A stretch of DNA of 39,415 nucleotides from a virus (lineage: Duplodnaviria; Caudoviricetes): the IMG/VR virus record IMGVR_UViG_3300044987_001885, positions 1 through 39,415 of that record; one strand, written 5' to 3'. Made by a program: the position numbers and the translations under genes. Shown here piece after piece: positions 128-39,415 of this stretch (the stretch's first letter is position 1; each line of letters begins with the position of its first letter). The notes beneath the pieces were generated by a model that saw nothing but the letters and a program-made list of their open reading frames with translations, did not search any database and was not told the DNA's origin.

Positions 128-3100
128 TCGGGCAAAGGAAAGTGGACACGATGGAGCAATTATCAGGAATGTGGATGATACCAGCGCCGGACGTGATAGC
201 AGGCCGATAACTACATTCGTCGCCTTCTCCCCCACCCAGATCAAATCCGTAAACAACCAGGGCGCGTGGAGCAAGGACGACCCTAGGATACTGTTCCAGC
301 CCGCCTACCACGGCACGCCCCACACCGTTGACAAGTTCTCCACCGACAAGATCGGCACGGGTGAAGGGGCGCAGGCTTACGGGTGGGGGCTTTACTTCTC
401 AAGCAATAGGGACGTAGCCCAGTTCTACCGGGACACTCTGACAAAAACAGCAGATTCGACTATCAATGGAAAGCCAATAAGCGCATTATATGAACAGCTT
501 GAGAAAAAAGCAGATAGGGCAAGTGGTAAAACAGCAGACGCCCTTTATGAGAAAATGGCTTTCCTTGAAGACCTTGAACTGACCCTGAGCTTTGATGAGT
601 CTATCGAAAGGATAGATAGCGATGCAACCAAAGAATGGGCGCTCTCATTGAGAGATAAGTACCAGCCAGCAGGAAATATTTACAAGGTTGAGCTGCCAGA
701 TGACGGGGATTATCTTGACTGGGATAAAAGCCAATTAGAGAACAGCAATGAAAAATTTATTGATGCTTTCGGAAGCATTACATCCAGCCGAGAAGCAAAA
801 AGAATATTATACACTCATAGCTTTTCTTTAACCGGAGAAGAAATATACGAAGATATTGTAAGCGCATACATGGAAACAGACGGAATAGACCGAGATGCAG
901 CTAAAAAATCAGCAAGCATGCTATTAAAATCCGTGGGCATACCCGGCATTACATACATGGGAGAATTCTCTAGGGTCAACGAAGGCGCTCGAAACTACGT
1001 CATATTTGACGAGAACAACGTCCAGATAACTGGAATCCTCTTCCAGCCCGATTCCGACCTGCTTGACGACGCCCGTTCCTTCCCCGACTGGCAGAAGTTC
1101 ATGGATGACTACGAGGAATTCCGCACCTTCGCCGACACAGCCGTGCCTGACCTTCCGCCCGAGGAGCTTGCCAAGTGGTACAAGGACACGTGGGAACGTG
1201 CGAGAAAAACACCCGTTGACCCCGTGGTGCAGGACGCCGAGTTCCTTGATATGATACGGGCCCCCGGTGGGGTGGAGCGCTTCATGGACGCCCTCGTGGT
1301 ATCCATGGGCTTCGACACTTCCAGGGGACCGATGGACGAGGAGGAGGCGCAGACCTTCGCTGACGCCGAGGCCCTGAAATCACGCATAAACCGTGAGGCC
1401 AACCCCACTATCCTGAACAACATCCCCCGCGTAGCCCAGGAAAAACCTCTCACCGAACGGGCCAGGAAGGCTATCGTCACCCTCATCAAGAACGGGACGA
1501 GGGATTACCGGGCATTGTACGCAGACGCCACCGGAGACCCCCAGTACCGTGTCACCGGCGACCAGCTACCCGAGATCGAGGGGCCGAGAAGCCGCGAGGA
1601 CATGTCCATCGACGAGCGCAACCTGATCGCGTTGCAGATCAAGGACGAGGCCACCCGCAATGCCCTGCTTTCAGGCGAGGACACCATCGAGGGTGGAGCT
1701 GTCGAGGGCTTCATCAAGCGCACCGAGGAGCGGGAACGCGACCTGAAGCGGCAGATAGCCGAGCTTGAGGAGGAGCTGAAGGACGACAACTCCATCATAA
1801 GCGCAGCCAACCGCCAGGCGGACAAGGCTTTGAAGGCTTCCAGAGAGGCCCAGAGGGCTTTCGAGAAGGCAGACCGGGAAGTGAAGCGGCTGATCAAGCG
1901 GGGCGAGGCCGTGTCGGAAACCCTTTCATCGGCGAGGCAGGAAGCGGCGCTCCAGCTCAAGACGGTGAAGAAGGAAGAAGCCGAGCTGAGGAAGGACATC
2001 CGGGTCGAGAAATCCATGGGCAAGAGGATTGCCCTGGACAACCTCCGAACCGAGCTGAGGGATGCCCAGGCCCAGAAGGACATCGCACGGAAAGAGCGGG
2101 AGCGCAAGGTCAAGCTGGCAAAGCGGATCATGCAGAAGCCGTCCGACTCCATCGAGTACGAATACCGCCAGAAGATAGCCGCCATCCAGAACCTTATCGA
2201 CGCCCACTTCAGGAAGACCTCCGTTTTCTGGGGGAAGGTGGACATCCAGCTGGACGACATCCAGAAGATACTCGCCGAGAACGCCGAATACGACCTGGAC
2301 AAGCTGCTCACCAAGAAGGTCGTGGACCGCATCACGAAGAAATCCCTGGACCAGTGGACCGTGGCAGAGCTTGAGGAGCTTGACGAGCGTGTACGGGCGC
2401 TGAGGACCGAGGGCAAGGCGATAAGGGACGCGTACAAGGAATACCAGAAGGCGCAGGCCCGGATCATGCGGAGCGAGATCCGCAACGCCCTTCTCGCATC
2501 CGGTAAGTACAAGGACCCGCCCCCCTCCGGCAGCGAGTCGGCGCAGAAACGGCTCAGAACCCCCGCGTACCGTGCCCAGCAGGCGTTCCTCTCGTCCATC
2601 AACATGGACCGCGTTGCCGACATGGCCGACGGAGGGAAGCCAGGGATGAACACCGAACTGCTTGTCACCCGCCACAGGGACGTACTGCGTGCCGAAATGC
2701 GCGAGACGAACCGCAGGCAGGCGGCAGTCATGAAGGCTTTCAAGGAGCTCGGGGTAGACCTGAAGGACTTCTACGAGACCCACGAGATCGACGGCAACAC
2801 CTGGACCACGGCGCAGCTGATGGGCGTGTACCTCGCCGACAAGAACGACCAGTCGCGGGAAGCGGTGCAGTTCGGCAACCTCATGACCGCCCAGGAACGC
2901 GCCACCCTTGACCGTGACGAGCTTACGGCAGAGGCGAAGGAGCGGTACGACGCGGTGATGGAAGTGGTTGACGCACTGCCCGAGGAGATCAAGAAGGCGG
3001 CGGATGCCATCGGGAAGGATTTCGACTCGAACTTTGACCGTATCCAGAAGACGAATATCCGCGAATTCAACGCCGGGGTGAAGAAAGTCCTGAACTACTT

Positions 3101-4499
3101 CCCCATATTCCGCCAGGAGGCCACCTTCGACGACCTGGCCGAGACGGTGGGGAACGAACTCCTGAACCGGAACGGCATCCAGCTCCAGAGGAACGCCGAG
3201 AAGGGCTTCACCGAATCCCGCATAGACATCGGACCCGAGCACCAGAAGCCCATGAGGCTTGACGCCATCGACGTATGGACCACCGCGATGAACGCCCAGG
3301 AACACTTCGTCGCATCCGCCGAATACGTGCGGGAGCTGAACCGTGTCTACAAGGGCCGGGGATCTGAAGCCACCAGAAGTGTAATGGAGGGAACATACGG
3401 CAAAGGGATGGTGGACAAGATCGACAAACACATCTCAGAGATAGCCAACCCCCAGTCCTTCCGCGTGAAGGACGGAACATCGGAAGTACTCAGGGCGATC
3501 CGGGGCAACCTGGGCATCGGCTACCTTGGCTTCCGGGTATCGAACCTCCTGGTGCAGGGTGTCACATCCCCCGCCCCGTACCTTGGATATGTCAACCCGC
3601 TTGAGCTTTCAGCGGCTGCGCTCAAGGTGGCATCCAACCCGCTGAAAGCCTGGAAGGAAATATCGGAGAAAAGCCCGATAATGGCCGGCAGGTCGGCCAA
3701 CGAGATGATGGAATCCATGAAGGAGGCCCAAAAGAGCATGACCGACGGTTCGGTCAAGGCCGGGTATGGAAAGATCATGGGCGCGACCATGATCGGGCTG
3801 GAGTGGGTGGACCGCGCATCTGTCATGGCTGGATGGCTGGCGGTGTACGACCGCACCATGGCCGAGACCAAGGGCGACGAGACCGCATCCATAGCGAAGG
3901 CCGACGACATCACCCTCAAGACCCAGCCCTCCGGGTACTGGTGGAACAACTCAAATATGTTCCAGCCCTCGGGGGACGCGAAGGGCGAGGCGTGGAAGAT
4001 CATCACCCAGTTCCAGAGCTCGCTGAATGTGATCTGGCAGAACCTCGCCTACGACGTTCCCAACGCTGTAAAGCAAAGGGACATTGGACGGGCCGTGGCG
4101 ATAGTCACCTCCTACGTGATTGCAGGGGCCGCTGTGGGCCTGCTGAAAGACGGGTACGACGATGACGACGAGGACGCGGTATCCAGGACGAGGAAGCTCC
4201 TGTACTGGGGAATGTCGCAGGGATGGGCAAGCTTCCCCATGGTCGGAGGGATCATAGACTCCACCGCGAAAAGCCTCATCACAGGTGAGAGGGAAAACCC
4301 CATTAGCACAGACCTGTACCCGGTTTTCTCAAGCGCCAACAAGGCCGTCGTGGCCGCGAGCGAGGGAAGCTGGAAAACAGCCATGAAAGAGTTCGGTGAA
4401 GCTATCGGATACTCGACCGGAACGCCTGTTTCGGGTATAAAGGAACTGGGGGCCGCACTCACGGGCGATCCAGGACGACTGATCGGCAGGAGGAAATAG
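1..4499 (+). CDS. 3' part of giant polyvalent/ejection protein (continues in frame from 34029 across the junction): end of ART-like domain 2, ART-like domain 3, coiled coil, large helical C-terminal domain
   Basis: Position 15 corresponds to 39303, in frame with ATG 34029. Motifs: GHDGAII..FVAFSPTQIKS..RILFQ; AYHGT..GEGAQAYGWGLYF..GIPGITY..NYVIFD..GILFQ; E/K/R-rich coiled coil; stop TAG 4497-4499. Confidence 0.9.
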   Translation, partial: DDKDMSEGYGQNVVSVYLSLQNPVVVDAEGKSYIEMNWTTITRAKESGHDGAIIRNVDDTSAGRDSRPITTFVAFSPTQIKSVNNQGAWSKDDPRILFQPAYHGTPHTVDKFSTDKIGTGEGAQAYGWGLYFSSNRDVAQFYRDTLTKTADSTINGKPISALYEQLEKKADRASGKTADALYEKMAFLEDLELTLSFDESIERIDSDATKEWALSLRDKYQPAGNIYKVELPDDGDYLDWDKSQLENSNEKFIDAFGSITSSREAKRILYTHSFSLTGEEIYEDIVSAYMETDGIDRDAAKKSASMLLKSVGIPGITYMGEFSRVNEGARNYVIFDENNVQITGILFQPDSDLLDDARSFPDWQKFMDDYEEFRTFADTAVPDLPPEELAKWYKDTWERARKTPVDPVVQDAEFLDMIRAPGGVERFMDALVVSMGFDTSRGPMDEEEAQTFADAEALKSRINREANPTILNNIPRVAQEKPLTERARKAIVTLIKNGTRDYRALYADATGDPQYRVTGDQLPEIEGPRSREDMSIDERNLIALQIKDEATRNALLSGEDTIEGGAVEGFIKRTEERERDLKRQIAELEEELKDDNSIISAANRQADKALKASREAQRAFEKADREVKRLIKRGEAVSETLSSARQEAALQLKTVKKEEAELRKDIRVEKSMGKRIALDNLRTELRDAQAQKDIARKERERKVKLAKRIMQKPSDSIEYEYRQKIAAIQNLIDAHFRKTSVFWGKVDIQLDDIQKILAENAEYDLDKLLTKKVVDRITKKSLDQWTVAELEELDERVRALRTEGKAIRDAYKEYQKAQARIMRSEIRNALLASGKYKDPPPSGSESAQKRLRTPAYRAQQAFLSSINMDRVADMADGGKPGMNTELLVTRHRDVLRAEMRETNRRQAAVMKAFKELGVDLKDFYETHEIDGNTWTTAQLMGVYLADKNDQSREAVQFGNLMTAQERATLDRDELTAEAKERYDAVMEVVDALPEEIKKAADAIGKDFDSNFDRIQKTNIREFNAGVKKVLNYFPIFRQEATFDDLAETVGNELLNRNGIQLQRNAEKGFTESRIDIGPEHQKPMRLDAIDVWTTAMNAQEHFVASAEYVRELNRVYKGRGSEATRSVMEGTYGKGMVDKIDKHISEIANPQSFRVKDGTSEVLRAIRGNLGIGYLGFRVSNLLVQGVTSPAPYLGYVNPLELSAAALKVASNPLKAWKEISEKSPIMAGRSANEMMESMKEAQKSMTDGSVKAGYGKIMGATMIGLEWVDRASVMAGWLAVYDRTMAETKGDETASIAKADDITLKTQPSGYWWNNSNMFQPSGDAKGEAWKIITQFQSSLNVIWQNLAYDVPNAVKQRDIGRAVAIVTSYVIAGAAVGLLKDGYDDDDEDAVSRTRKLLYWGMSQGWASFPMVGGIIDSTAKSLITGERENPISTDLYPVFSSANKAVVAASEGSWKTAMKEFGEAIGYSTGTPVSGIKELGAALTGDPGRLIGRRK

Positions 4500-6503: not shown

Positions 6504-6649
6504 TGGACGTACGCGAACACCCCAACCAAGACGGATATATCATCACCATGACGGACGGGACCGAATACGCCACGCAGGAGGGCGACAGGTTCTACGAGGC
6601 GGCGCGGGAAGCGTTCGAGGGCGAGGAGATCATGAATGACCCGGCTTGA
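6503..6649 (+). CDS. Small hypothetical protein (48 aa), possibly tail-fibre associated
   Basis: ATG overlaps the tail-fibre stop (TAATG); MDVREHPNQDGYIITMTDGTEYATQEGDRFYEAAREAF..; below the ORF-track cutoff. Confidence 0.6.
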   Translation: MDVREHPNQDGYIITMTDGTEYATQEGDRFYEAAREAFEGEEIMNDPA

Positions 6650-7172
6650 GATATTCAACAGGTGTGTGAAAGGCCCGTGGAAAACAAGCGGACTCGGCGT
6701 GCAATGGCGATGGAAAGACGGCGTGCTGGCTTTCCAGTGTACCCGCGACAGGCAGGACTGGCTGTTCAACTTCTTCGCGGGACGGGCGACCATAGACGGC
6801 GACCTTGCCCACGCAGGGTTCGCTTCCCTGTGGGCATCGGTCCTGCACGAGGTGTCCATGTCTGTAGGTACCACTTCTGGCTTCCAGATCGAGGGCTATT
6901 CGCAGGGCGCGGCGCTTGCCACCCTTGCCTATCGGTACTTCGACAAGCGGGGACAGGCTCCACATGGCAACGTATTCGGAAGCCCGAAGGTGTTCGCCCA
7001 GAAAGTAACCTGCCCGGACCTTGAGAACATCCAGACCCACGGGGACATCGTTACCGCCCTCCCGTTCCTGAGCTGGTTCCACCACACCGGGACGATCATA
7101 CGGCTGGGGAAACAACAGATCATACCCACACCGATGAGGCACACGCCTGACGAATACAGGAAGGCATTATGA
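6636..7172 (+). CDS. Class 3 lipase-like alpha/beta hydrolase
   Basis: LAFQCT..DW, AHAGF, nucleophile elbow GYSQGAALA, FGSPKV, GDIVTALP, C-terminal H..Y: the Lipase_3 motif order with Ser-Asp-His. Confidence 0.85.
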   Translation: MTRLEIFNRCVKGPWKTSGLGVQWRWKDGVLAFQCTRDRQDWLFNFFAGRATIDGDLAHAGFASLWASVLHEVSMSVGTTSGFQIEGYSQGAALATLAYRYFDKRGQAPHGNVFGSPKVFAQKVTCPDLENIQTHGDIVTALPFLSWFHHTGTIIRLGKQQIIPTPMRHTPDEYRKAL

Positions 7173-21080: not shown

Positions 21081-21733
21081 GAACCCGGAGCATAGACACC
21101 CACGAAAAGAAGGCCGAGATAATCAAGGCCCTGGTCAGCGGAAGGGAGTCATACCAGAATATATCGGAACGATATGGGATTTCAAAGACGGCAATATGCA
21201 CATACCTGAAGGACAGGCTGTACCCACAGGTAGCCTCTGCCAGGATCGCAGAGGACAAAAAGGCCGGCAAGACCATGCTCGAGAGGATCGAGAGGGAGAT
21301 GGTCTACAGCCAGAAGATGTACGAATCGTGCAACGACTGGCTCCAGGACCCCACCAACCCAGACCGATACGAGCTCGGGCCCAGGGGATACGAGATCAAC
21401 GTCGTCTACAGGGACGAGAATGGACACCAGCAGAAGGCCACCCTCCAGACCCTGCTTGACCGTATCTCCGGAAGCCAGGAGTTCAGGACATTCGACCTGT
21501 TCGCCAAGGTCGCTGACCCAAGACGGCTTATCCTGGAATCTGCCAACACGCTCAACAGGCAACTCGAGATGCTCGCCAAGGTCGAGGGCCTCATCAAGGA
21601 GAACACCACAGCCGCCCAGGACCCACAGACGATATACATGACCATGATCCAGATAGTCGAGAATGCCACGAAGAAGGCTCCGGAGGTACGAGATAGCATC
21701 ATCAAGGCCCTTGAGGCTGCCGGTAATACCTAG
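21071..21733 (+). CDS. Probable terminase small subunit
   Basis: N-terminal HTH (ESYQNISERYGISKTAI), helical C-terminus, directly upstream of the terminase ATPase. Confidence 0.6.
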   Translation: MGLRTRSIDTHEKKAEIIKALVSGRESYQNISERYGISKTAICTYLKDRLYPQVASARIAEDKKAGKTMLERIEREMVYSQKMYESCNDWLQDPTNPDRYELGPRGYEINVVYRDENGHQQKATLQTLLDRISGSQEFRTFDLFAKVADPRRLILESANTLNRQLEMLAKVEGLIKENTTAAQDPQTIYMTMIQIVENATKKAPEVRDSIIKALEAAGNT

Positions 21734-22619
21734 CAACGCATTCACCCATGCCGTCTACGGGCTGTCGCGTGACAGGTATATCCGCAGCCTTGGGTTCAAA
21801 CCGTTCGAGTGGCAGACAGACATACTCGAATCCCAGGCCCGCAGGAAGATCGTCAACGGGGCTAGGCAGTCGGGGAAGTCAACGATCATAGCCAGCACCC
21901 CCAGCCATCGGGCACGGTACTGGCCCAAAAGCCTGTCAATTGTACTGGCAGCCACAGAGCGGCAGGCGGTTGAGGACATCGAGAAGATCAAGGACTTCAT
22001 TTCCCGCGACCCCACATACCCTGAGATCATGCGCGACTCGGACAGCCTCATCGAGCTTTCAAACGGTTCACGCATCCTTGTCGTTCCGGCCACCGAGAAG
22101 GCAGCACGTGGATACTCCAACCCCGACATCATCATCCTGGACGAGGCCAGCCGCATCGAGGACGCCGTGTACAAGTCGGGGGTGAGGCCGATGCTCACCG
22201 ACAACGAGAAATGCGAGCTTATCGCCATATCGACACCCAACGGACGCATGGGCTTCTTCGCCAACGCCTGGGCATCGGACAGGTGGGAGCGGTACGAGGT
22301 GCGCTCCCCGTGGGAGATCGGCGAGGACAAGTGGACACTTGTCGAGACCATGCCCGAGCGGAGATACCGCGAGACCATGGCAAAAAGAGGCATAAAGGGC
22401 TATTATTCACCCAGGCACCATGTTTTCAGCGAACAGCAGGAGAACCTTATCGAGATGGGCGCGGATATGTACCGCCAGGAGTACCTTTGTGAATTCGTGG
22501 AACCCGACGAGCAGACCTTCACCTACGACGAGGTGGACGCAATAATGCACCCCGGCGAGGCCATCGAGTGCATGGACTTCGGGCTTGTCATGACTGATGA
22601 CAGGGCGATGGTGATCTGA
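21663..22619 (+). CDS. terL: Terminase large subunit, ATPase part (true start may be TTG 21711)
   Basis: PFEWQ, Walker A GARQSGKST, ARGYS, Walker B IIILDEA, coupling motif ISTPNG, RQEYLCEF. Confidence 0.88.
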   Translation: MPRRRLRRYEIASSRPLRLPVIPSNAFTHAVYGLSRDRYIRSLGFKPFEWQTDILESQARRKIVNGARQSGKSTIIASTPSHRARYWPKSLSIVLAATERQAVEDIEKIKDFISRDPTYPEIMRDSDSLIELSNGSRILVVPATEKAARGYSNPDIIILDEASRIEDAVYKSGVRPMLTDNEKCELIAISTPNGRMGFFANAWASDRWERYEVRSPWEIGEDKWTLVETMPERRYRETMAKRGIKGYYSPRHHVFSEQQENLIEMGADMYRQEYLCEFVEPDEQTFTYDEVDAIMHPGEAIECMDFGLVMTDDRAMVI

Positions 22620-23341
22620 TGCACGAGTACTGCGTATCCGTTGACATAGCCAAGAAGCGGGACTACACCGCGATAATGGTGTTCAGGGACAGGCCCAACC
22701 TGGTCGAGGGCATCGAGTCGCTGGGGCAGGGGCACAGGTTCATCCACACCTACGACATCATGCACATCGACAAGTTCCAGGGCGTGTCCTACCCGGAGAT
22801 AGCCGATATAGTTTCCAACATGATGGAGCACCACGACCTCAAGGCCAACGCCGACCTGCTGGTTGACGGCTCGGGAGTGGGGGCTGCTGTTGTGGATCTC
22901 ATGAGGGATATGTTCCTCACCCCCATACCCATCATCTTCACCGGACCCGGCAAGGCCAGGGAAGTGTACGCCGACATGGGGAACATCTTCAGCGTATCGG
23001 ACAGGCTGAAGGGCGCTAGGATACTGAACGAGATCCACGTGCCCAAGGTGGACATGGTTGCCGCCGCCCGTATACTTACCCAGCAGAGGCGATTCAGGAT
23101 GACGCAGGGCCTCAAGTGGGCGGACGAGTTCGAGCGACAGATGCTCAAGTTCAGGGGCAAGGTGAACGAGAAGACGGGCCACGTGAGGCACGAGGCCGAG
23201 ACGGAGGACACCCACGACGACCTTGTGGTATGCTTGCTCATGGCAGCATGGTGGTTCAACCGCGACCGCAGGGACACCGAGATTGTAGCGGCGAGGACGG
23301 GCGACTCCGTACCCGAATGGAACCCGATGGACTTTGCTTAG
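22619..23341 (+). CDS. terL: Terminase large subunit, RNase H-like nuclease part (separate gene)
   Basis: SVDIAKKRDYTA, LVDGSGVG, HDDLV acidic nuclease motifs; TGATG overlap. Confidence 0.85.
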   Translation: MHEYCVSVDIAKKRDYTAIMVFRDRPNLVEGIESLGQGHRFIHTYDIMHIDKFQGVSYPEIADIVSNMMEHHDLKANADLLVDGSGVGAAVVDLMRDMFLTPIPIIFTGPGKAREVYADMGNIFSVSDRLKGARILNEIHVPKVDMVAAARILTQQRRFRMTQGLKWADEFERQMLKFRGKVNEKTGHVRHEAETEDTHDDLVVCLLMAAWWFNRDRRDTEIVAARTGDSVPEWNPMDFA

Positions 23342-30442: not shown

Positions 30443-31810
30443 ATGGACCCCTGGAGCATTGCCGCGATAGGCGGTTTCATAGCGAGCGGACTGAACACCC
30501 TTTTCAACTACGACTCCGGGACGAAGGCCATCAAGCTAGCCAAGGAAGGCCAGAAGATAGACCGGGCCCAGCTTGCCATAGATGTCAATGAATTCCTTAT
30601 CGGGATGCAGCAGGCCGAGCTTGACCTGGGCGGGACGCTTGACTCAGCGAAGGGAAGCCTGCTGGACCTCAAGGAGCGCCAGGGCTCACTCAAGATAACC
30701 GCCCTCGACTACTCAAGCAAGATAGCCAGCTACGACGAGTTCCTTGCTAGATACCCGGCATACTCAGAGCTTATGGTGTCCGAGATGGATGCCCAGGGCA
30801 AGGCTGAATTCCGCTCGCTGCGCGAGAATTTCGGGGTGTCGAACGTGGCAGCCGCTGAACGTGGCCAGTCCGGAGGCTCTGCCCAGGCCATGTCCTCCCG
30901 TGCCATGCAGGACCTTGCCGACTACGCGGGGGACGACCTTTCACTTGGAGAGATGACTACCGGGAACGTGGGCATGTTCCAGATGAAAAAGAGCGAGCTT
31001 GTCCTTGACCTTGACGCACAGTACCGCGAGGCCGAAACCCAGAGGGGCATATTCTCCACCGGGCTTGACCAGATCAACACCTCAATCGGCGACTTCGACA
31101 CCGCGATAACAGACTCCGAGGGACACATAACCGACATCGAGAACGCGATAGCAGGATGGGACGCCAACTACGACGCGATTGAGGCATACTTCGCCGACCT
31201 GCTGAAGGAGCCGGAGACACCTCCACCTGTGATTGCACCCGTGACAGATACGCCCGTAATCTCAGGGACTACGGATACAGGATCATCAGGGACCACATCG
31301 ACACCTGCTGTCGAGGATATACCAGTATCTCCGACACCTGCAGACACATCCATATCAGCTCCGGGGGCCACTGACGGGCTATCCGACCCTGCCAAGGAAA
31401 TGTTCGGAGTGGAGAATGGAATCGAGCTTCCAAATATCTACATACCAGATATAACCGCCCCCGTGATAACCGACATACCAACCTACGGAGAGGACAATCT
31501 TGCCGCAACTCCCAACCTGACCGAACTGGGAAACGAGGCGGTCCTGCCATCAGACCCATCCGCCAGCGACAGCGCACGGGCCGCAGGTACAGCCACCAAC
31601 GCTAAGAAGAAGAAGGAAAGCACCAGCACCACTTCTGCGAGTGACAAGGCACGGGCCGCAGGTACAGCCACCAACGCTAAGAAGAAGAAGAAGAAGAAAA
31701 GCACCAGCACCACTTCTGCGAGTGACAAGGCACGTGCGTATGGAACGAAAGCCAAGGCGGACGCCGCAGATAAAGCCAAGGCCATAGCTAACAAGGCAGG
31801 CATATATTGA
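30443..31810 (+). CDS. Internal virion (ejection) protein with acidic linker and Lys-rich repeat tail
   Basis: Hydrophobic Gly/Ala N-terminus, coiled coil, AAERGQSGGS; position after the nozzle. Confidence 0.6.
   Translation: MDPWSIAAIGGFIASGLNTLFNYDSGTKAIKLAKEGQKIDRAQLAIDVNEFLIGMQQAELDLGGTLDSAKGSLLDLKERQGSLKITALDYSSKIASYDEFLARYPAYSELMVSEMDAQGKAEFRSLRENFGVSNVAAAERGQSGGSAQAMSSRAMQDLADYAGDDLSLGEMTTGNVGMFQMKKSELVLDLDAQYREAETQRGIFSTGLDQINTSIGDFDTAITDSEGHITDIENAIAGWDANYDAIEAYFADLLKEPETPPPVIAPVTDTPVISGTTDTGSSGTTSTPAVEDIPVSPTPADTSISAPGATDGLSDPAKEMFGVENGIELPNIYIPDITAPVITDIPTYGEDNLAATPNLTELGNEAVLPSDPSASDSARAAGTATNAKKKKESTSTTSASDKARAAGTATNAKKKKKKKSTSTTSASDKARAYGTKAKADAADKAKAIANKAGIY
31574..31734 (+). 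repeat. Intragenic tandem repeat (75 and 81 bp units) with variable AAG tract
   Basis: gcacgggccgcaggtacagccaccaacgct(aag)n..agcaccagcaccacttctgcgagtgacaag twice, n=4 and 6. Confidence 0.9.
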
Positions 31811-34032
31811 AAGTCCCCGAGCTGTCATACGCGCCACTCCAGGAAGCGAATTCCGCCACCTACGCCGGGAAGAAAAGCTCCCTAGTAGCATCATCCCTCG
31901 GACGTATCGACGAGGGCATAGCCCTGAATTCCACGCGGATGGGTCTGGGGGCCTCCAGCCTTAAACTGGCAGAGCGCAGGCTTGACCTGAACGACAAGGC
32001 CATAAGGAACCGCCAGACCGATTCAGTCGCGCGTCTTGCCCTCAACCTCGGAGACCTTGCCCTTAAGGCCATCCCAGAGATAGCCAACATCGTGAAGCAG
32101 AGCCAGCTTGAGACGGCCAAGTCGGGGTTGCTGGACATCCAGGCCAAGTACAACGTGCTCCAGGAAACCAGCATCCTGAACGGCAAATCCTCCTTCGTGC
32201 AGGGTGCGGACGGGCAGCTTGAGTTCCAGGAGGACCTCGCCCTTGAGCAGTGGAGGAGCCAGAGACTCGCCGAGATAGACGGGACAAACGCTTTCAAGGA
32301 CGTGAAGGCGTGGACCACTGCCCAGGCCAAGGGCATGTTCATGGCCGGGCAGGACAGAGCCCTGACCGTTGCAGTGAACAACGCCCGCACCGTAGCAAAC
32401 GAGAGCTTCCAGACCAATATGGACTCGGCACGCACCGCCGACCTTGCGGGTGAAGGGTACGACACCGGACTGAGCCTCATAGAGTCCAACACCATGATTG
32501 GACCTGCCCAGAAAGAGTACATGAAAAAGGCGTACACGAAGGAGCTTGACTACCAGCGGGCATCATCCGCGATAACAGGCGTGGCAGAGAGCGACGGGGC
32601 CGAGCTTGCCCGCACCCTCATGAACGGAAAGTACAAGGGACAGCTGAGTCCCGAGCAGATCGACACCCTGGAAAACGAGATCATCAAGGCAGACAGGTCC
32701 GGTGACGTGGTCGTGTCGGAATCGGCATACTCGGCCATGTACAACGGCATGAAGGAAGGAAAGAGCCCCGACCAGCTCAAGGCTGATATAGCAAAGACTC
32801 TTTCCACCCAGCCTGACAACCGGAAAGCCCTTGCGTATGAATCTATCATCAAGGCGCAGACCCTCCGGGCCAGCGAGATCGGAGAGTCCAACTGGAAGAA
32901 GGACCGCGAGAACGCCACCATTATGGGCATGAGAGCAGCACGCGACCGGGTAGCCAGCGATCCATCGTACAGGGGCGTTGAGGACGTCCAGAACATCTTC
33001 CTGAACCGCTACGACTCCGACATAGCCGCGATGGAGAGGGCAGAGGCTTCTTCCCTGAAGAGCGCCGATGCCGTAAACGGAGAGCGGATCAACGCCGAAG
33101 CCACCTATACCATGTTCAAGAACGGGACCATATCCGGCACCGAGGCCATCACGCGGATGATGTCCTACAGCCAGACAGCGGATGATGTGACCATGGGAAC
33201 GATCAACGGGCTGATGGACAAGGTGAGGACCAACATCGTGCCCGAGAAGCACCAGAAGGCAGCAGGTGAGTTCTGGGACCGCGTGAAGGTCGGGATAGTC
33301 GGAGACAGGAAGCCATCCGACTTCACCGACCAGCAATGGAGCGAGCTGAGCAGCGCGAAAGCGTGGGTTGACGGGGCGATCCTTGACCTTTACTGGGAGA
33401 CCAGCGCCAACGACATGACCACCGAGAAGTTCTCAAAAGAGCTGGACAACATCAACATGATCTACACGTCAAAGGAATTGAAGGCCATCCAGTCGGGAAG
33501 CATCAACGTGGGTCCTGGCAACACGGGGGCCCTGAAGGACGCCCTTTCAAAGCAGGCGATCTTCGACACCGTTGACCCCGTTTACGTTGACCATGACGGT
33601 TCGGTGAACTGGGCCAAGCCTGAATACAAGGCCACCTACGACCAGATGAACATGGTATTCAGGGCTGACCTGGAGTCCAAGGGAATAACCATCAAGAGCC
33701 AGACCATGCAGACCGAGGGACTGAACGACGTTGTACCCAGGCAGATATTCCTGGACGACAAAGGGAACGAGTACTTCTACGACGGGAAGGGCCTGAACAG
33801 GAAGGCGAAGGGCCAGGACCAATTTCTTCCTGTTGACGCCAAGGTTGCCGCCGAGATTGCCGGCCAGTCGGTGAAGCCGCTTGAGAACAAGGTTAAACCG
33901 CCCGAACAGGTCAAACAGGAAGAGGCAGCCAAGAAACTTGCAGACGAACAGTCAACGTGGGCAGACGAACAGACCCTACGCGATGCCAAAACATCAGGGA
34001 TCAGGCTTGTGAAGCCGAAGGCCACCAAATGA
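31807..34032 (+). CDS. Internal virion (ejection) protein, helical
   Basis: 741-aa helical ORF between two ejection-type genes, overlapping both. Confidence 0.65.
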   Translation: MKVPELSYAPLQEANSATYAGKKSSLVASSLGRIDEGIALNSTRMGLGASSLKLAERRLDLNDKAIRNRQTDSVARLALNLGDLALKAIPEIANIVKQSQLETAKSGLLDIQAKYNVLQETSILNGKSSFVQGADGQLEFQEDLALEQWRSQRLAEIDGTNAFKDVKAWTTAQAKGMFMAGQDRALTVAVNNARTVANESFQTNMDSARTADLAGEGYDTGLSLIESNTMIGPAQKEYMKKAYTKELDYQRASSAITGVAESDGAELARTLMNGKYKGQLSPEQIDTLENEIIKADRSGDVVVSESAYSAMYNGMKEGKSPDQLKADIAKTLSTQPDNRKALAYESIIKAQTLRASEIGESNWKKDRENATIMGMRAARDRVASDPSYRGVEDVQNIFLNRYDSDIAAMERAEASSLKSADAVNGERINAEATYTMFKNGTISGTEAITRMMSYSQTADDVTMGTINGLMDKVRTNIVPEKHQKAAGEFWDRVKVGIVGDRKPSDFTDQQWSELSSAKAWVDGAILDLYWETSANDMTTEKFSKELDNINMIYTSKELKAIQSGSINVGPGNTGALKDALSKQAIFDTVDPVYVDHDGSVNWAKPEYKATYDQMNMVFRADLESKGITIKSQTMQTEGLNDVVPRQIFLDDKGNEYFYDGKGLNRKAKGQDQFLPVDAKVAAEIAGQSVKPLENKVKPPEQVKQEEAAKKLADEQSTWADEQTLRDAKTSGIRLVKPKATK

Positions 34033-37000
34033 GCGACATCTACCAGCGGATCATGGGTGAGGTTGACTACGACAACGCCAAGAAGTCCATGGAGCTGAAA
34101 CAGGCTGGAAAATCCTACACCCCGGACGTGTACGGCAAGGTTCAGGCCGATATTGACCAGGACAACACCACCAGAGCCGAGAACGTGGACAGGTGGAAGT
34201 ACACCGTCCCCGTGACCGACCTGGAATACAAGGTTCTCAACCAGGCTTTCGAGAATTCCAGCGACCCCGAGGCCGACCGATACCGCTACGCCGCCGCCAT
34301 GACCTTCGCCAAGGAGTACAACGCTCCATTGGATTGGGCGATCCAGAACCTTGACGCCCTCTCAGAGTACCAGCGGGGCGAGAAGTTCACGCCCAACCGC
34401 TCATGGCTGACCGCCACCATCGACAGCTTCGAGGTCGGGGCCATGGACGTGGAGATAGCCAAGCTCTCCCAGCAGTACAAGATCGACCACCTCGCCGGGA
34501 AGGACACGAAGGCACTCGACACCCAGATAGCCGCCCTTGAGGCCCTCCAGGAATCGCTTGAGGATAAGCAACCTCGTTGGGTGACCACCAAGGCCGCGAA
34601 GTTCGGCGCGAAGCTCCTGCCCTACACGGCATCCATCGCATTGCCAGCCGCCGCCGCAGGTGCAGCCGCCGCAGGTGCCGCTGTCATGATGGGAGCGGGA
34701 GCCGCCACCACGATAGGCTCGGGCGGGCTGCTCCTTCCTGTGGGTGCCGCCATGTCGGTTGCCGCGATATCAGCCGCAGCCGGAAAGGCCGTGTCCTTCG
34801 CAGAGGGCCTGAAGCTGATGGAGGGGGTAGAGTACCGGCGCATGATCAAGAACGGCATCCGCCCCGACATAGCCGCGCCTCTTTCGTCCATTTCCGGTAT
34901 GGTCCAGTCCGCCGCCGAGACCTTTTTGGGCACGATTCCCGGTGCTCTGGGCAAGGTTGCCGGCCTGAACGTCGGCACGCTCTCAACCAACCTGATGGGT
35001 AAGCTCGTGGTTTCCGGAAAGCTCGGAGCCATGGGGAAAGCCCTCATGTCCTACGGACTGGAGGCGGGGGAGGAAGGGCTTGAGGAGACCTTGCAGGAAG
35101 TGACCTCCTTCCTTGCTGACGAGGCCGCCGCATCCGTTCAGGGAGTGGCCAGCCCAGAAGATTCGAAACGCATCTTCACCAGGGCTTTCGAGGCCGCGAA
35201 GGGCGGGTTCCTGGGGGGATTGGTACTCGGGCTTCCCGGTGCCGCGATGGACACAGCCGGAACTTCCAAGGAAGTGAAGTCCCTCAAGAACATGGCTTCC
35301 TCACTCGACGAGGCAGATTTTGTCTACATGGCCAAGCGGGGGATAGCCGACGGCAGCATAACCGTGTTCGGTGACGCTTCCAACGGAGAACTGGGCACGT
35401 TCTGGAGGGCGAACAAAGACCGCGTGAAGGCCCAGGCCAAGGAAGCCGCTCCCATCGACATCAAGGAAACCCTGGAGACAGCCGACATAACCGAGGACGA
35501 CGAGGAACCCGCAGGCCCCGTCAAACGGTTGAAGGACGGCAAGCTCTACACCTCCGTATCCACCAAGAAGGAGACGAATTCCGACGGGTCCATGACAGGC
35601 TACTTCCTGACCGGAGACCCCGAGACCGCGAAAAGGCACGGATACATCCAGTACACCACCGACACCGATGGAAGGATACGTATCGACGCGGTGAAGATGA
35701 AGGACGGATACCAGACCATCCGCAAGGAACTGCTGACCGACTTCATAGCCAAAAACAAGGGAGCGGAGATTTCATGGGACCCCACCGACAAGGGGCTTAT
35801 TTCCCTTCGTGACGAGCTTGTTGCCGGGAACCCCCGTGGGGCGGACAAGGGACTGTCATGGTTCGGAGAGGACGACGACCCCGTACAGGGCATGAGGATG
35901 AAGGCCCTTGAGGAGAAGATAGCCAAGCGCCTCCCCAACATAACCCCGGACCAGAGGGTAGGGGCCATGCACATTGTGTCCGGTGCAGCCAACTATCTTG
36001 GAATCACCCCCGACGAGTTCATCAAGCGTGCCTACACGGACGAGGTGTTCGGGGACGACCCCAACGTGACCGTGGCCCAGGGCAAGAAGGGCGGGGTATC
36101 CTGGAAGGACATCGGTGGGATGTCCAAGGCTATCATCTACACGACCGAGAATTCCGACTTCTCGACTTGGGCGCACGAGAACGCCCACGTAATGCGACGG
36201 CTTTTGAAGGACGAGGACCGCAAGCTTGTCGAGGAGACCTACGGGGTCGAGGGCAAGTGGACCGTGGAGTCCGAGGAACGCTTCGCCACCGACGCGGAAA
36301 AGTACCTCATGAGCGGCGAGGCCCCATCCCCCAGCCTCAAGAACCTGTTCGAGAAAATCGCCAAGTGGATGCACGACATCTACAAGGGCATGACCGGGAA
36401 AGTGGACATAGACCCCCGCATCAAGTCTGTCATGGAAAAGCTGTATGCGGATAAGGCTTCCCCCCTCTCAAAACAGGCCACGGCAAGCGTGGATGGGCAA
36501 GGGCAAACGCAGGACGGAAAAACGTGGAATGATGCCGACCTTCCTAACGATGTGGCTGCAATCAATCCTGCGAGTTTCGTAGATGAAAGACAGAAAAGCA
36601 TCGAGGAGCTCAAGAAAACCATATATGATTTGGCGGTCAAGAAAAACCGTGCAGATCATGTATTCAAGAAATGGATAGCTACCCATTGGACAGAAGAAGA
36701 TAATCTGCGCGGCAACAGCAAGACCAGAAAAGGAAAGCAGGTTGTAACAAGAGAGGAGATCGACAAAAGAAAAGAAGAATACGAGCAAGAGGATGATATT
36801 CTTGAGAAGAAAGGAATCGCTCTGACCGGAGAGCTCATGAAGCTTGAGGACATGGCCGTCAAAGGCGCGGACACGTTGTTCCAGTACGTCGGCGAGAAGG
36901 CAATGCTTGACGACATCGAGCGCCAGAACCTTTCGATAGCACGCGAGATGGACGCGGCAGGGAAAGACGCGGAGACGATCCGGCTTGCGACTGGATGGTT

Positions 37001-39415
37001 CAAGGGCAAGTACGACGGAAAGTGGAGGATGGAGGTATCTGGAATAAAATGGAAGAAGGCAGGAATAGATAGCAAGGCAGAATATCTTGGAGATGCAATA
37101 TCAGCCCCAGAGATATTCAGGAAGTATCCTGACCTGAAAGAAGCCGGGTTCTCGTATGGAGGCACCTCTGAAGGAATTATTAAAAATGAGAATCTGAAAG
37201 GATCATTCACACCAGGAGGATTTTTCAAGGTAGGACACATAAAGATTGATCCTAAGATAGATAATAATGAAGCATTAAACATACTTGAGCATGAAATACA
37301 ACACGCGATACAGAGCATAGAGGGTTTTGCGACCGGAACCACAACAGGAGTTGGTGCCTGGATGAGATTTGAGAATAGGCCATCACTAATTAAGGCAGCC
37401 AATAGGACTCTTGAGGAATGGAAACCTGCCTCCTATGAGCTATATTGGGGAAAGGAGCATACAGAAGAAGGAGATGCTGCATATAAAGAATATCTAGACA
37501 ACTGGAATACACCGGATGCCAAGAGAAAACGTGAGATACTCGCACAGCAAGGTGCTGGAAATAAGGTATACAAACTATCAGCGGGAGAAATAGAGGCTAG
37601 AGATGTGGCGCTTCGTGCCAGCCTGACACCAGAAGAGCGCAGGTCGTTGCCACCGTATTCAAGCGAAGATATCAGTAGTGATGACGCCGTGGTGCTCTTC
37701 CAGACGGAAGAAGATTTCAAGAATCTAAGGGACAGATGGGAAGCGAAGGGCGTTTCACTTGACATATTTGCCAGCGATAGGAGTGACCACGCAGGCCTTA
37801 CGATAAAGATGGCAAAAGAATCGCGGAATCAGGGTCTTGGCACATCCGCAATGCAAGAATCAGTAGCACTCGCAGACAAACATGGAATACGTCTGGATTT
37901 GAGCCCAACCAACGAGTGGGGATCATCGAAAGAAAGATTGGTCAAGTTCTATAAAAGATTCGGATTTGTTGAGAACAAGGGCAGGAATAAGGATTACCGA
38001 ATATCGGAGACCATGTATCGACTGCCTCAGAACGACGGCGTTGTATCGGAAACGCTCTTCCAGTCCGACGACATACGCGCCATGTACGAGGGTACGGACA
38101 AGTGGATGAAGGCCCCCAACGGCAAGCCCACCAACCTGAACGAGCGGCAGTGGTTACAGGTCAGGACGCCCGAGTTCAAGGCGTGGTTCGGGGACTGGAT
38201 CAACGACCCGGAGAACGCTTCCAAAGTGGTGGATGAGAACGGGGAGCCGTTGATTGTCTACCATGGAAGCCCGAACGCATCTTTCACAGAGTTTTCGCTT
38301 GATTACTCAGAAGATGAGACGCTTGCATACGGAAAAGGTGTCTATCTTACCGAGTCAACCACAGCGGCATCAGGGTACGCAAGACCAGGTTCATCATGGG
38401 GAAATGATAATGCTATGGGGGTCGGTGGAGTCTATCCTCTTTTTGCCCGTATTGTTAATCCTTTTGACTTAGATAAAGCAATTACTAATAAAGAAGCTAT
38501 GCGTATTATTGATCTAAGCGGATACGAGGTATCTGGTGCTGATATAGACGGAATGAACGAGGAATCTACTTTCGATGGAAATTATCTTTACGAAGAAATA
38601 GAAGATGCAGAGAACGCTCTAATTGAATTCGAGTCCAACCCAGACGAAGAAATTGACCCAGATGATTATGATGATGGGTATGCTGATGCTGATTACCAAG
38701 AAGATTATGACAAAGAAGTTGAAAGGCTAAAAAAGAAAATAGAAATAAAAAGGTCTAAACTTGACGATGCAATCAAGGAACATGATGGGCTTGTTAATAC
38801 TGGGAAACGAGGCTCTATCATGGGACGGAAATTGTGGGAATCAATATGGAAAAGCTCAACAGAGTACCAGGATTGGAAAACAGAAAGAACGCTCATAGGC
38901 GGCGTTTCCAATGAAATGGAGTTCAAAACCGTTGCAAACGATATTTTACGCATTGCAGGGTATGATGGTATCACACATACCGACGCATACAACCCAGGGG
39001 GTGGAGAAAATCATCAGGTTTACATAGCTTTCGACCCTTCATCCGTAAAATCAGCTATCTCCAACACCGGCACCTTCTCCAATGACAACCCCTCTATCCT
39101 CTTCCAACCCTCCCCCCCCACCGACAGCCCCGCTTTCCGCGAGTGGTTCGGCGACAGCGCCGTGGTGGACGCTGAGGGCAAGCCGCTGGTCGTGTACCAT
39201 GGGACAAGAAGCCCAAAAGTCGAAATATTTCACGGGCGATCTTCATGGAAAGCGGCATTTCCATCCGAGATAGGTGCGACATGGTTCACTGACGACAAGG
39301 ATATGTCGGAAGGATACGGACAGAATGTGGTATCCGTATATCTTAGCCTGCAAAACCCTGTGGTGGTTGATGCTGAAGGCAAAAGCTACATTGAAATGAA
39401 TTGGACTACCATTAC
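34029..39415 (+). CDS. 5' part of giant 3252-aa polyvalent/ejection protein: hydrophobic N-terminal region, zincin (HENAH), LPD23-like plus zincin (HEIQH), GNAT, ART-like domain 1 and start of ART-like domain 2; continues to 4499
   Basis: ATG at 34029 (ATGA overlap); manual translation finds no stop before the window end. Motifs: STWAHENAH..EERFA; TGWFKGKYDGKWRME; LEHEIQHAIQ..GEIEARDV; RNQGLGT..LVKFYKRFGF; VYHGS..GVYLT..GYDGI..YIAFDP; VYHGT..TWFT. Confidence 0.9.
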   Translation, partial: MSDIYQRIMGEVDYDNAKKSMELKQAGKSYTPDVYGKVQADIDQDNTTRAENVDRWKYTVPVTDLEYKVLNQAFENSSDPEADRYRYAAAMTFAKEYNAPLDWAIQNLDALSEYQRGEKFTPNRSWLTATIDSFEVGAMDVEIAKLSQQYKIDHLAGKDTKALDTQIAALEALQESLEDKQPRWVTTKAAKFGAKLLPYTASIALPAAAAGAAAAGAAVMMGAGAATTIGSGGLLLPVGAAMSVAAISAAAGKAVSFAEGLKLMEGVEYRRMIKNGIRPDIAAPLSSISGMVQSAAETFLGTIPGALGKVAGLNVGTLSTNLMGKLVVSGKLGAMGKALMSYGLEAGEEGLEETLQEVTSFLADEAAASVQGVASPEDSKRIFTRAFEAAKGGFLGGLVLGLPGAAMDTAGTSKEVKSLKNMASSLDEADFVYMAKRGIADGSITVFGDASNGELGTFWRANKDRVKAQAKEAAPIDIKETLETADITEDDEEPAGPVKRLKDGKLYTSVSTKKETNSDGSMTGYFLTGDPETAKRHGYIQYTTDTDGRIRIDAVKMKDGYQTIRKELLTDFIAKNKGAEISWDPTDKGLISLRDELVAGNPRGADKGLSWFGEDDDPVQGMRMKALEEKIAKRLPNITPDQRVGAMHIVSGAANYLGITPDEFIKRAYTDEVFGDDPNVTVAQGKKGGVSWKDIGGMSKAIIYTTENSDFSTWAHENAHVMRRLLKDEDRKLVEETYGVEGKWTVESEERFATDAEKYLMSGEAPSPSLKNLFEKIAKWMHDIYKGMTGKVDIDPRIKSVMEKLYADKASPLSKQATASVDGQGQTQDGKTWNDADLPNDVAAINPASFVDERQKSIEELKKTIYDLAVKKNRADHVFKKWIATHWTEEDNLRGNSKTRKGKQVVTREEIDKRKEEYEQEDDILEKKGIALTGELMKLEDMAVKGADTLFQYVGEKAMLDDIERQNLSIAREMDAAGKDAETIRLATGWFKGKYDGKWRMEVSGIKWKKAGIDSKAEYLGDAISAPEIFRKYPDLKEAGFSYGGTSEGIIKNENLKGSFTPGGFFKVGHIKIDPKIDNNEALNILEHEIQHAIQSIEGFATGTTTGVGAWMRFENRPSLIKAANRTLEEWKPASYELYWGKEHTEEGDAAYKEYLDNWNTPDAKRKREILAQQGAGNKVYKLSAGEIEARDVALRASLTPEERRSLPPYSSEDISSDDAVVLFQTEEDFKNLRDRWEAKGVSLDIFASDRSDHAGLTIKMAKESRNQGLGTSAMQESVALADKHGIRLDLSPTNEWGSSKERLVKFYKRFGFVENKGRNKDYRISETMYRLPQNDGVVSETLFQSDDIRAMYEGTDKWMKAPNGKPTNLNERQWLQVRTPEFKAWFGDWINDPENASKVVDENGEPLIVYHGSPNASFTEFSLDYSEDETLAYGKGVYLTESTTAASGYARPGSSWGNDNAMGVGGVYPLFARIVNPFDLDKAITNKEAMRIIDLSGYEVSGADIDGMNEESTFDGNYLYEEIEDAENALIEFESNPDEEIDPDDYDDGYADADYQEDYDKEVERLKKKIEIKRSKLDDAIKEHDGLVNTGKRGSIMGRKLWESIWKSSTEYQDWKTERTLIGGVSNEMEFKTVANDILRIAGYDGITHTDAYNPGGGENHQVYIAFDPSSVKSAISNTGTFSNDNPSILFQPSPPTDSPAFREWFGDSAVVDAEGKPLVVYHGTRSPKVEIFHGRSSWKAAFPSEIGATWFTDDKDMSEGYGQNVVSVYLSLQNPVVVDAEGKSYIEMNWTTI
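39289..39415. repeat. Terminal overlap, duplicate of 1-127
   Basis: Exact identity with the window start. Confidence 0.95.

What the first reader, a model, noticed from the sequence alone, without database searches (positions are those of the whole stretch)
36876..39415. Effector polyprotein: five enzyme modules each bounded by the same [I/V/T]LFQ motif
Seen: LFQ occurs six times in the 3252-aa protein, each at a domain boundary: DTLFQ (36876-36884), VVLFQ (37695-37703), ETLFQ (38055-38063), SILFQ (39099-39107) and, past the junction, RILFQ (291-299) and GILFQ (1038-1046). The intervals (273, 120, 348, 160 and 249 aa) each hold one module: LPD23-like plus zincin, GNAT, ART-1, ART-2, ART-3. 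I saw no LFQ in the flanking ~950-aa N-terminal or ~1150-aa C-terminal parts (closest is NMFQP). The codons vary synonymously (ctc/ctg/ttg-ttc-cag/caa). Known: phage polyvalent proteins combine zincin, GNAT and ART domains. Inference: LFQ is either a processing site that releases separate effectors after packaging or injection, or a junction through which cassettes are added and swapped. It resembles the 3C protease site VLFQ, but three copies have Pro after Gln, so any cut may not be Q/X.
Basis: partly seen in the sequence, partly recalled or inferred. Interest (0 to 1): 0.92.

Follow-up and report, generated by a model that had tools for sequence, protein, structure and literature searches.

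The report
Cut-here code in phage cargo protein
A giant phage protein carries five swappable enzyme modules, each bordered by the same three residues (Leu-Phe-Gln), and across many phages this border tag changes in step with the protein's own zinc-protease domain, so it is likely the site where that domain cuts the modules free, although no cut has been observed.

Summary
Observation confirmed. The 3252-aa protein (identical and unbroken in L001) has six LFQ (0.23 expected), each at a border of LPD23/zincin, GNAT or ART-PolyVal modules. It is a polyvalent protein in the ejection-protein slot of a BPP-1/T7-like podophage. Relatives keep the N- and C-terminal backbone but carry 60-1700 aa of cargo in LFQ-to-LFQ units; one 232-aa ART cassette is gained or lost exactly at the LFQ codons. 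Among 85 ART-selected proteins, the ART tail ends in Gln in 27 of 29 that have this HExxH peptidase clade and in 2 of 56 that lack it; those use other self-consistent codes (IRFS, IRKS, IRES, INMA). ART cores 83% identical carry their own backbone's code. Best reading: a cleavage site read by the backbone zincin, which also fixes where cassettes can be swapped. Cleavage is not shown, the fold was not confirmed, peptidase and backbone are confounded, and 7 proteins have a code but no HExxH. Iyer et al. 2017 proposed such processing; I found no printed motif.

The parts
34029..39415 (+). Polyvalent protein gene, first part (aa 1 to about 1796); continues across the 127-bp terminal repeat
   Evidence: unbroken copy in L001
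1..4499 (+). Polyvalent protein gene, second part to the stop (bases 1-127 repeat the window's end)
34629..34769 (+). Hydrophobic Ala/Gly-rich segments (aa 201-247) of the N-terminal backbone, predicted membrane-inserting
   Evidence: hydropathy; role inferred
35901..36473 (+). Backbone zincin-like peptidase (MPTase), aa 625-815: HENAH at 36174-36188 and downstream Glu at 36276-36278; candidate motif reader
   Evidence: H, E, H, E invariant in 10 of 10 rows; HExxH in 186 of 189
36072..36080 (+). VAQ, possible degenerate seventh motif in a low-confidence loop of the peptidase domain; BPP-1-like relatives carry cargo at the equivalent spot
   Evidence: (read by eye)
36876..36884 (+). LFQ 1 (aa 950-952), border of backbone and cargo
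36885..37694 (+). Module 1: LPD23 plus a second zincin-like HEIQH domain (37290-37304)
   Evidence: SprT-like hits in relatives
37695..37703 (+). LFQ 2 (aa 1223-1225)
37704..38054 (+). Module 2: GNAT-like acetyltransferase
   Evidence: E 1e-3, below cut-off; PHROG hits over aa 1225-1341
38055..38063 (+). LFQ 3 (aa 1343-1345)
38064..39098 (+). Module 3: ART-PolyVal 1 with a large acidic insertion
   Evidence: (73 bits)
39099..39107 (+). LFQ 4 (aa 1691-1693)
39108..39415 (+). Module 4: ART-PolyVal 2 (continues to base 290 past the junction)
291..299 (+). LFQ 5 (aa 1851-1853)
300..1037 (+). Module 5: ART-PolyVal 3 (AYHG type)
   Evidence: 32.9 bits, over cut-off
1038..1046 (+). LFQ 6 (aa 2100-2102), border of cargo and C-terminal backbone; kept even in a relative with almost no cargo
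1047..4499 (+). Conserved C-terminal backbone (1150 aa; hydrophobic segment at 4083-4139)
   Evidence: (phrog_9880)
30443..34032 (+). Two upstream ORFs (455 and 741 aa) in the slots that hold internal virion proteins in BPP-1-like phages
   Evidence: gene order; no family hit

Best explanation
LFQ marks every border of five swappable enzyme cassettes in a 3252-aa phage protein, and it is likely the recognition site (hydrophobic-Leu-x-Gln) at which the protein's own backbone HExxH peptidase cuts the cassettes free. Shown: the motif, its place at borders, cassette gain and loss at it, and its covariation with the peptidase clade. Inferred: the protein is packaged as the last of three ejection proteins; its conserved ends would serve membrane insertion and DNA entry; the peptidase would cut at each site in the head or, more likely, after ejection, releasing pieces of about 30, 14, 39, 18 and 28 kDa that modify host targets; since a cassette helps only if it has a site on both sides, selection would keep only swaps that fall on the motif, and short homology in the junction codons would help such swaps. 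The scissile bond is unknown (before Leu or after Gln).
For: Six copies against 0.23 expected. Unrelated folds share it: LPD23/zincin, GNAT, ART, PBECR, RadC, methyltransferase. LFQ is the most enriched 3-mer in 174 related proteins, 297 against 57.9 (includes some LFQK from a peptidase helix). The cargo/C-backbone border has the motif in 41 of 46 hits (4 are duplicates), and 4 of the 5 misses still show xFQ or xYQ; cargo ranges from 60 to 1702 aa. A 696-nt ART cassette separates L021 and L022, with breakpoints on the 9-nt LFQ codons. ART tails end in Gln in 27 of 29 proteins with this peptidase clade and 2 of 56 without (Fisher p 1e-17, not corrected for kinship). Away from ART tails, L[FY]Q is enriched 2.2-fold in the first class and not in the second (0.83). 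In 69 of 77 cross-class nearest-neighbour ART pairs each tail follows its own backbone, including cores 83% identical (ILAQ vs IRFS). Leu and Gln are fixed (83%, 92%) with a free middle residue, as expected of an extended substrate. HExxH is intact in 186 of 189 proteins. Conservation is at protein level: codons differ across lineages and F/Y interchange. In the ART-2 model LFQ is coil and order ends at the Gln. Iyer et al. 2017 (PMC5512222) predicted MPTase autoprocessing.
Against: No cleavage data exist for this protein or, in what I could read, for any relative. Peptidase clade and backbone lineage are confounded, so another backbone part or a separately encoded protease could read the motif. 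The tree-based test had only 4 independent pairs on well-supported branches and was not significant (median p 1). Seven of 85 proteins have self-consistent codes but no HExxH at all, so a peptidase in the same chain is not required for such codes. Pro follows Gln in 3 of 6 copies here and in 9% of 119 tails, awkward for a cut after Gln. N4 vRNAP has an HExxH domain and stays intact (PMC13434306; PMC5512222), though that domain does not match this clade's profile (3.8 bits). In the ART-2 model the tail up to Leu-Phe is ordered (pLDDT about 80), so it may partly pack on the domain.
Confidence: 0.58

Rival explanations
1. The motif is a cleavage site, but the cutter is another protease: a separately encoded phage head protease, a host protease, or the cargo zincin of module 1.
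For: L-x-Q resembles head-protease motifs that cut after A-x-E or S-x-E (SPN3US, phiKZ; PMC5694885, passages read). Seven of 85 ART-bearing proteins without HExxH keep codes such as ITKS, LSKA and ISNE/IGNE.
Against: No prohead protease was found among the window ORFs scanned. The capsid protein has no LxQ-type motif. The LPD23-linked zincin occurs with both Gln-type and Ser-type codes and is missing from relatives that keep LFQ (P0002, P0003, P0007, L025). The code follows the phage backbone across very different phages.
Confidence: 0.16
2. The motif is not cut. It is a docking or threading signal by which the backbone (or a packaging or ejection partner) holds each module or feeds it through the tail, and the protein stays whole like N4 vRNAP.
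For: Backbone-specific covariation fits any backbone-encoded reader. N4 vRNAP is ejected and purified intact (PMC13434306). Pro after Gln is tolerated.
Against: The catalytic HExxH-E set is almost invariant. Near-empty arrays keep one site between the backbone halves (P0044). About half of the peptidase domains have the motif in the loop just before their strands (93 of 186 vs 24% of random windows), as a self-processing site would.
Confidence: 0.15
3. The motif is the translated trace of a DNA recombination junction (integron- or shufflon-like) and has no function in the protein.
For: Exact indel at the 9-nt repeat. In eight low-GC relatives 19 of 28 junctions read TTATTCCAG, and TTA is used in 25 of 28 against 29 of 80 background Leu-Phe pairs (related genomes, not independent). 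In the window GC3 is 76% near junctions, 36% in cassette cores and 79% in the backbone, so junction flanks are homogenised or native while cores are foreign.
Against: Across lineages only synonymous or conservative changes occur (CTC/TTA/TTG/CTG; TTC/TAC/TAT; CAG/CAA), always in frame. TTC before a C is a general context bias, 137 of 198. No recombinase family was hit among the ORFs scanned. This reading explains how cassettes move, not why Leu and Gln are kept.
Confidence: 0.08
4. LFQ is simply the last structural element of each domain.
For: The ART tail up to Leu-Phe is ordered in the model.
Against: It borders unrelated folds and acidic linkers, is coil in the model, and near-identical ART cores end in different codes in different backbones.
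Confidence: 0.03

Closest known systems
Phage-type polyvalent proteins with a zincin-like MPTase (Iyer et al. 2017, PMC5512222; abstract, part 3 of the main text and search passages read; supplements not seen)
   Same: Large virion-region protein joining MPTase, ART-PolyVal, GNAT and LPD23; MPTase autoprocessing and cassette-like mosaicism were proposed there.
   Different: Term searches of the main text for motif, linker, boundary and cleavage site showed no junction motif or cut site. Here a motif is defined, tied to one peptidase clade, and shown to be the breakpoint of cassette exchange.
N4 virion RNA polymerase gp50 (PMC13434306; passages read)
   Same: Giant ejection protein with N-terminal membrane helices, cargo enzyme and an HExxH domain.
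   Different: Stays intact; its HExxH domain does not match this clade's profile; no cassette array.
Large internal virion proteins of BPP-1-like podophages (Carin1 gp32, Pseudomonas phage AF gp16, Octadecabacter BD1 gp16)
   Same: Same gene slot and peptidase clade; modules bordered by LNQ, LDQ, LFQ, YNQ, FFQ.
   Different: Their cargo lies before the peptidase strands, apparently inside the domain (read by eye), whereas here it lies after the peptidase.
Prohead-protease maturation motifs A-x-E / S-x-E of SPN3US, phiKZ, T4 (PMC5694885; passages read)
   Same: Short x-spaced motif on head cargo that is ejected into the host.
   Different: Those are cut by a separate prohead protease, mostly to remove propeptides; none was found here.
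MARTX toxins and RNA-virus polyproteins (recalled, not looked up)
   Same: Conserved ends, variable effector array, release by a protease in the same chain.
   Different: Unrelated domains and protease class; an analogy only.

Membership tests
Phage polyvalent proteins (Iyer 2017) | Several domains of disparate activity in one large polypeptide | tested here: met
   LPD23, GNAT-like, ART-PolyVal x3 in 3252 aa
Phage polyvalent proteins (Iyer 2017) | Encoded by a phage among virion genes | tested here: met
   Terminase, portal, Gp7 capsid, Bbp16 and tail genes upstream
Phage polyvalent proteins (Iyer 2017) | Packaged and injected with the DNA | not testable with these tools
   Inferred from gene order shared with Carin1, AF and Ab9
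Zincin-like MPTase | HExxH helix plus a downstream Glu | tested here: met
Zincin-like MPTase | Zincin fold with three-stranded sheet | tested here: inconclusive
   Model came out all-helical from a gappy alignment; no clear match
Zincin-like MPTase | Proteolytic activity at LxQ | not testable with these tools
   Needs experiment
3C-like protease sites (consensus recalled) | Small residue (Gly/Ser/Ala) after Gln | tested here: not met
   1 of 6 here; S26 E13 P9 T9 D7 A6 G5 % in 119 tails
3C-like protease sites (consensus recalled) | A chymotrypsin-like cysteine protease in the genome | tested here: inconclusive
   None hit among the ORFs scanned; many ORFs have no family
Integron/shufflon-type cassette sites | Fixed DNA core independent of the reading frame | tested here: not met
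   Synonymous and F/Y variation across lineages, always in frame
Integron/shufflon-type cassette sites | Dedicated site-specific recombinase | tested here: inconclusive
   None hit among the ORFs scanned; not all ORFs were scanned
Prohead-protease maturation sites | Same motif in capsid or scaffold precursors | tested here: inconclusive
   None in the capsid protein; one LDQ mid-chain in the 277-aa ORF, at about chance level

The most novel reading that the evidence does not exclude
Podophage ejection proteins are self-processing polyproteins with a lineage-specific cleavage code: each backbone peptidase clade reads its own short motif (LxQ for this clade, whose profile hits 11,412 clusters at 50% identity; RFS, RES, TKS, NMA for others), incoming effector cassettes are recoded to the host backbone's motif, and the motif therefore delimits every injected effector, known or unknown, from sequence alone.
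Probability: 0.5. Interest if true: 0.88.

Novelty: new variant of a known kind. Interest (0 to 1): 0.73.

Why it matters
Processing of polyvalent proteins has been a conjecture since 2017 with no site to test. A defined motif, a candidate enzyme and cultured phages that carry both (Carin1, AF, BD1) make it testable with one gel and one proteomics run. The motif also cuts these giant proteins into their natural units, a direct way to list the enzymes phages inject at the start of infection, including unnamed ones, and it could supply new sequence-specific proteases.

Tried and rejected
AlphaFold model of the peptidase domain: high confidence but all-helical; Foldseek and VIA-align found no clear match, so the fold is unconfirmed. 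No solved relative by sequence. ESM Atlas gave only unnamed clusters at 0.94-0.95. The complex prediction of peptidase plus junction peptide returned no verdict. The ART tree was poorly resolved: 37 changes of tail state among 150 rows, only 4 independent pairs on starred branches, not significant. The ART alignment was too diverged for locus scans. The uniform TTATTCCAG in low-GC relatives first looked like a DNA site; the context control removed much of the signal. [RK][FY]S was not enriched outside ART tails in the other class (88 vs 97.9), so sharing of the code by non-ART borders there rests on single cases (RES in P0232, RKS in P0209, RYN in P0237). No virion gel for a member could be read: the Carin-1 structure paper is not held; the phi24B (section 5) and LME-1 (passages) papers gave no fragment sizes for the large protein. 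Ten literature searches listed no paper that describes the motif; subscription papers, the Iyer supplements on an FTP site and bioRxiv supplements were not seen and could hold it. The host was not established; one relative at 28% identity is labelled Treponema sp..

Full report
The window is a complete, circularly assembled phage genome with a 127-bp terminal repeat. Terminase, head-tail connector, Gp7 capsid, Bbp16 and tail genes make it a BPP-1/T7-like podophage. The giant gene follows two ORFs of 455 and 741 aa, the order of internal virion proteins in Carin1, AF and Ab9, so it is inferred to be the last ejection protein. Its 3252-aa product is identical to an unbroken ORF in L001, so the join is not an artefact.

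LFQ occurs six times (0.23 expected; 0 of 200 shuffles gave any 3-mer as enriched), at aa 950, 1223, 1343, 1691, 1851 and 2100. Pfam domains fall between the copies: LPD23, a GNAT below cut-off, and three ART-PolyVal stretches. Upstream, aa 625-815 hold an HENAH motif and a downstream Glu that are invariant in an alignment of ten relatives. This matches the MPTase description of Iyer et al. (PMC5512222, part 3 read). No Pfam model covers this domain, yet its profile hits 11,412 clusters at 50% identity.

Relatives show a constant backbone and a variable array. BLAST matches of P0003 and P0004 to the C-terminal part begin at aa 2099-2100, the last LFQ. Of 46 hits to the start of that part (4 are duplicates), 41 have the motif at the border and 4 of the other 5 show xFQ or xYQ; cargo length runs from 60 to 1702 aa with 1 to 6 motifs. 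Cargo includes ART, LPD23/zincin, PBECR1, PBECR5, RadC and a methyltransferase. L021 and L022 differ by one 232-aa ART cassette whose breakpoints are the nine LFQ bases. In the window, third-position GC is 79% in the backbone, 36% in cassette cores and 76% around the junctions: the cores are foreign, the junctions native or homogenised. The uniform TTATTCCAG of low-GC relatives is partly codon-context bias. Across lineages the changes are synonymous or F/Y, so selection acts on the protein.

To ask what dictates the motif, I took the 116 new proteins among the best 120 of 2337 hits to the window's ART-2, merged them into 86 groups and dropped one with no recognisable ART tail. Scores against the peptidase profile split cleanly (47 or more versus 13 or less). 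The ART tail ended mostly in Gln in 27 of 29 proteins with this peptidase clade and in 2 of 56 without. The others use different codes that are consistent within a protein (1.92 of 3 positions shared within proteins, 0.77 between), such as IRFS, IRKS, ITAS, IRES and INMA, and these broadly group with other HExxH clusters. The tail does not follow the ART core: in 69 of 77 cross-class nearest-neighbour pairs each ART carries its own backbone's code, none was reversed, and one pair is 83% identical over 139 aa. These pairs are not independent, and a tree-based test had too few supported pairs to decide. Outside ART tails L[FY]Q is enriched in the first class only (44 vs 20.4; 34 vs 41.0). In 119 distinct tails of this class the profile is I87 L83 x Q92, with a free middle residue.

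In cultured BPP-1-like phages the same peptidase clade goes with LNQ, LDQ, YNQ, FFQ and LFQ borders, and the last copy lies a few residues before the peptidase strands; by eye the cargo sits between the domain's N-terminal helices and those strands. The window has VAQ at that spot, in a loop modelled with low confidence. Such a motif is present there in 93 of 186 proteins against 24% of random windows, and HExxH is intact in 186 of 189. In an AlphaFold model of ART-2 both LFQ copies are coil, and confidence falls below 50 at the Gln.

The simplest account is a cleavage site read by the backbone peptidase, which also constrains where cassettes can be exchanged. It is an inference. Against it: no cut has been seen; the zincin fold was not recovered; peptidase and backbone cannot be separated here; 7 of 85 proteins have a code without any HExxH, which points to other proteases in other phage types (one reads S/G-N-E, like the S-x-E motif of phiKZ in PMC5694885); Pro often follows the Gln; and N4 vRNAP stays whole (PMC13434306), though with a different HExxH domain. 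I put cleavage by the backbone peptidase at 0.58, cleavage by another protease at 0.16, an uncut docking signal at 0.15, a pure DNA junction at 0.08 and a structural strand at 0.03.

What was read: PMC5512222 (abstract, part 3 of 14, term-search passages; supplements not seen); PMC13434306, PMC12407071, PMC5694885 and 10.1101/2020.03.07.982082 (passages); 10.64898/2026.04.10.717836 (section 5 and passages). Iyer et al. and the phi14:2 preprint propose zincin processing without naming a site in the passages seen. Ten searches listed no paper on the motif. The MARTX, 3C and integron comparisons are recalled. Earlier notes of this scan reported comparable junction motifs in other phage giant proteins; they are unchecked AI notes and not independent proof. 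The protein family is known. The motif, its exact use as a swap point and its covariation with a peptidase clade make this a new variant of a known kind, directly testable in cultured phages.

Noticed in passing
window 36474-36875: The 134-aa linker between the peptidase and the first LFQ is also low in GC (48%) and acidic; it may be a sixth cassette that lost or never had an upstream motif.
   Followed up: partly
L019 aa 1053-1065, L021 aa 961-971, L022 aa 970-980, P0040 aa 803-813: Two motifs only 8-10 residues apart at the start of the array, like scars of cassette loss.
   Followed up: no
L025 aa 1070-1084 and 1213-1223: The first cassette ends in a copy of the backbone's upstream junction peptide (FGE..VA.EEALFQ), suggesting insertion with a short duplication.
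   Followed up: no
P0233, P0211, P0201, P0223, P0177, P0231, P0242: ART-array proteins with no HExxH but their own border codes (ISNE/IGNE, LSKA/ITKS, IxFS); candidates for cutting by a head protease in trans. P0233 is labelled partial.
   Followed up: partly
P0241 aa 1639-1751: An ART-array protein that carries an Acb1/2'-5' RNA ligase-like domain as cargo (Acb1 hit just below cut-off), a possible injected anti-CBASS module.
   Followed up: no
window 21663-23341: The terminase ATPase ORF (318 aa) is followed directly by a 240-aa ORF; the large terminase may be split in two genes.
   Followed up: no
window 6636-7172 and 4500-6503: A class-3 lipase-like gene and a tail protein with a LamG domain follow the giant gene.
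   Followed up: no
P0098, P0132: Two members of the peptidase clade in which no HExxH was found in the matched stretch; possible inactive forms that would test whether the motif decays without catalysis.
   Followed up: no
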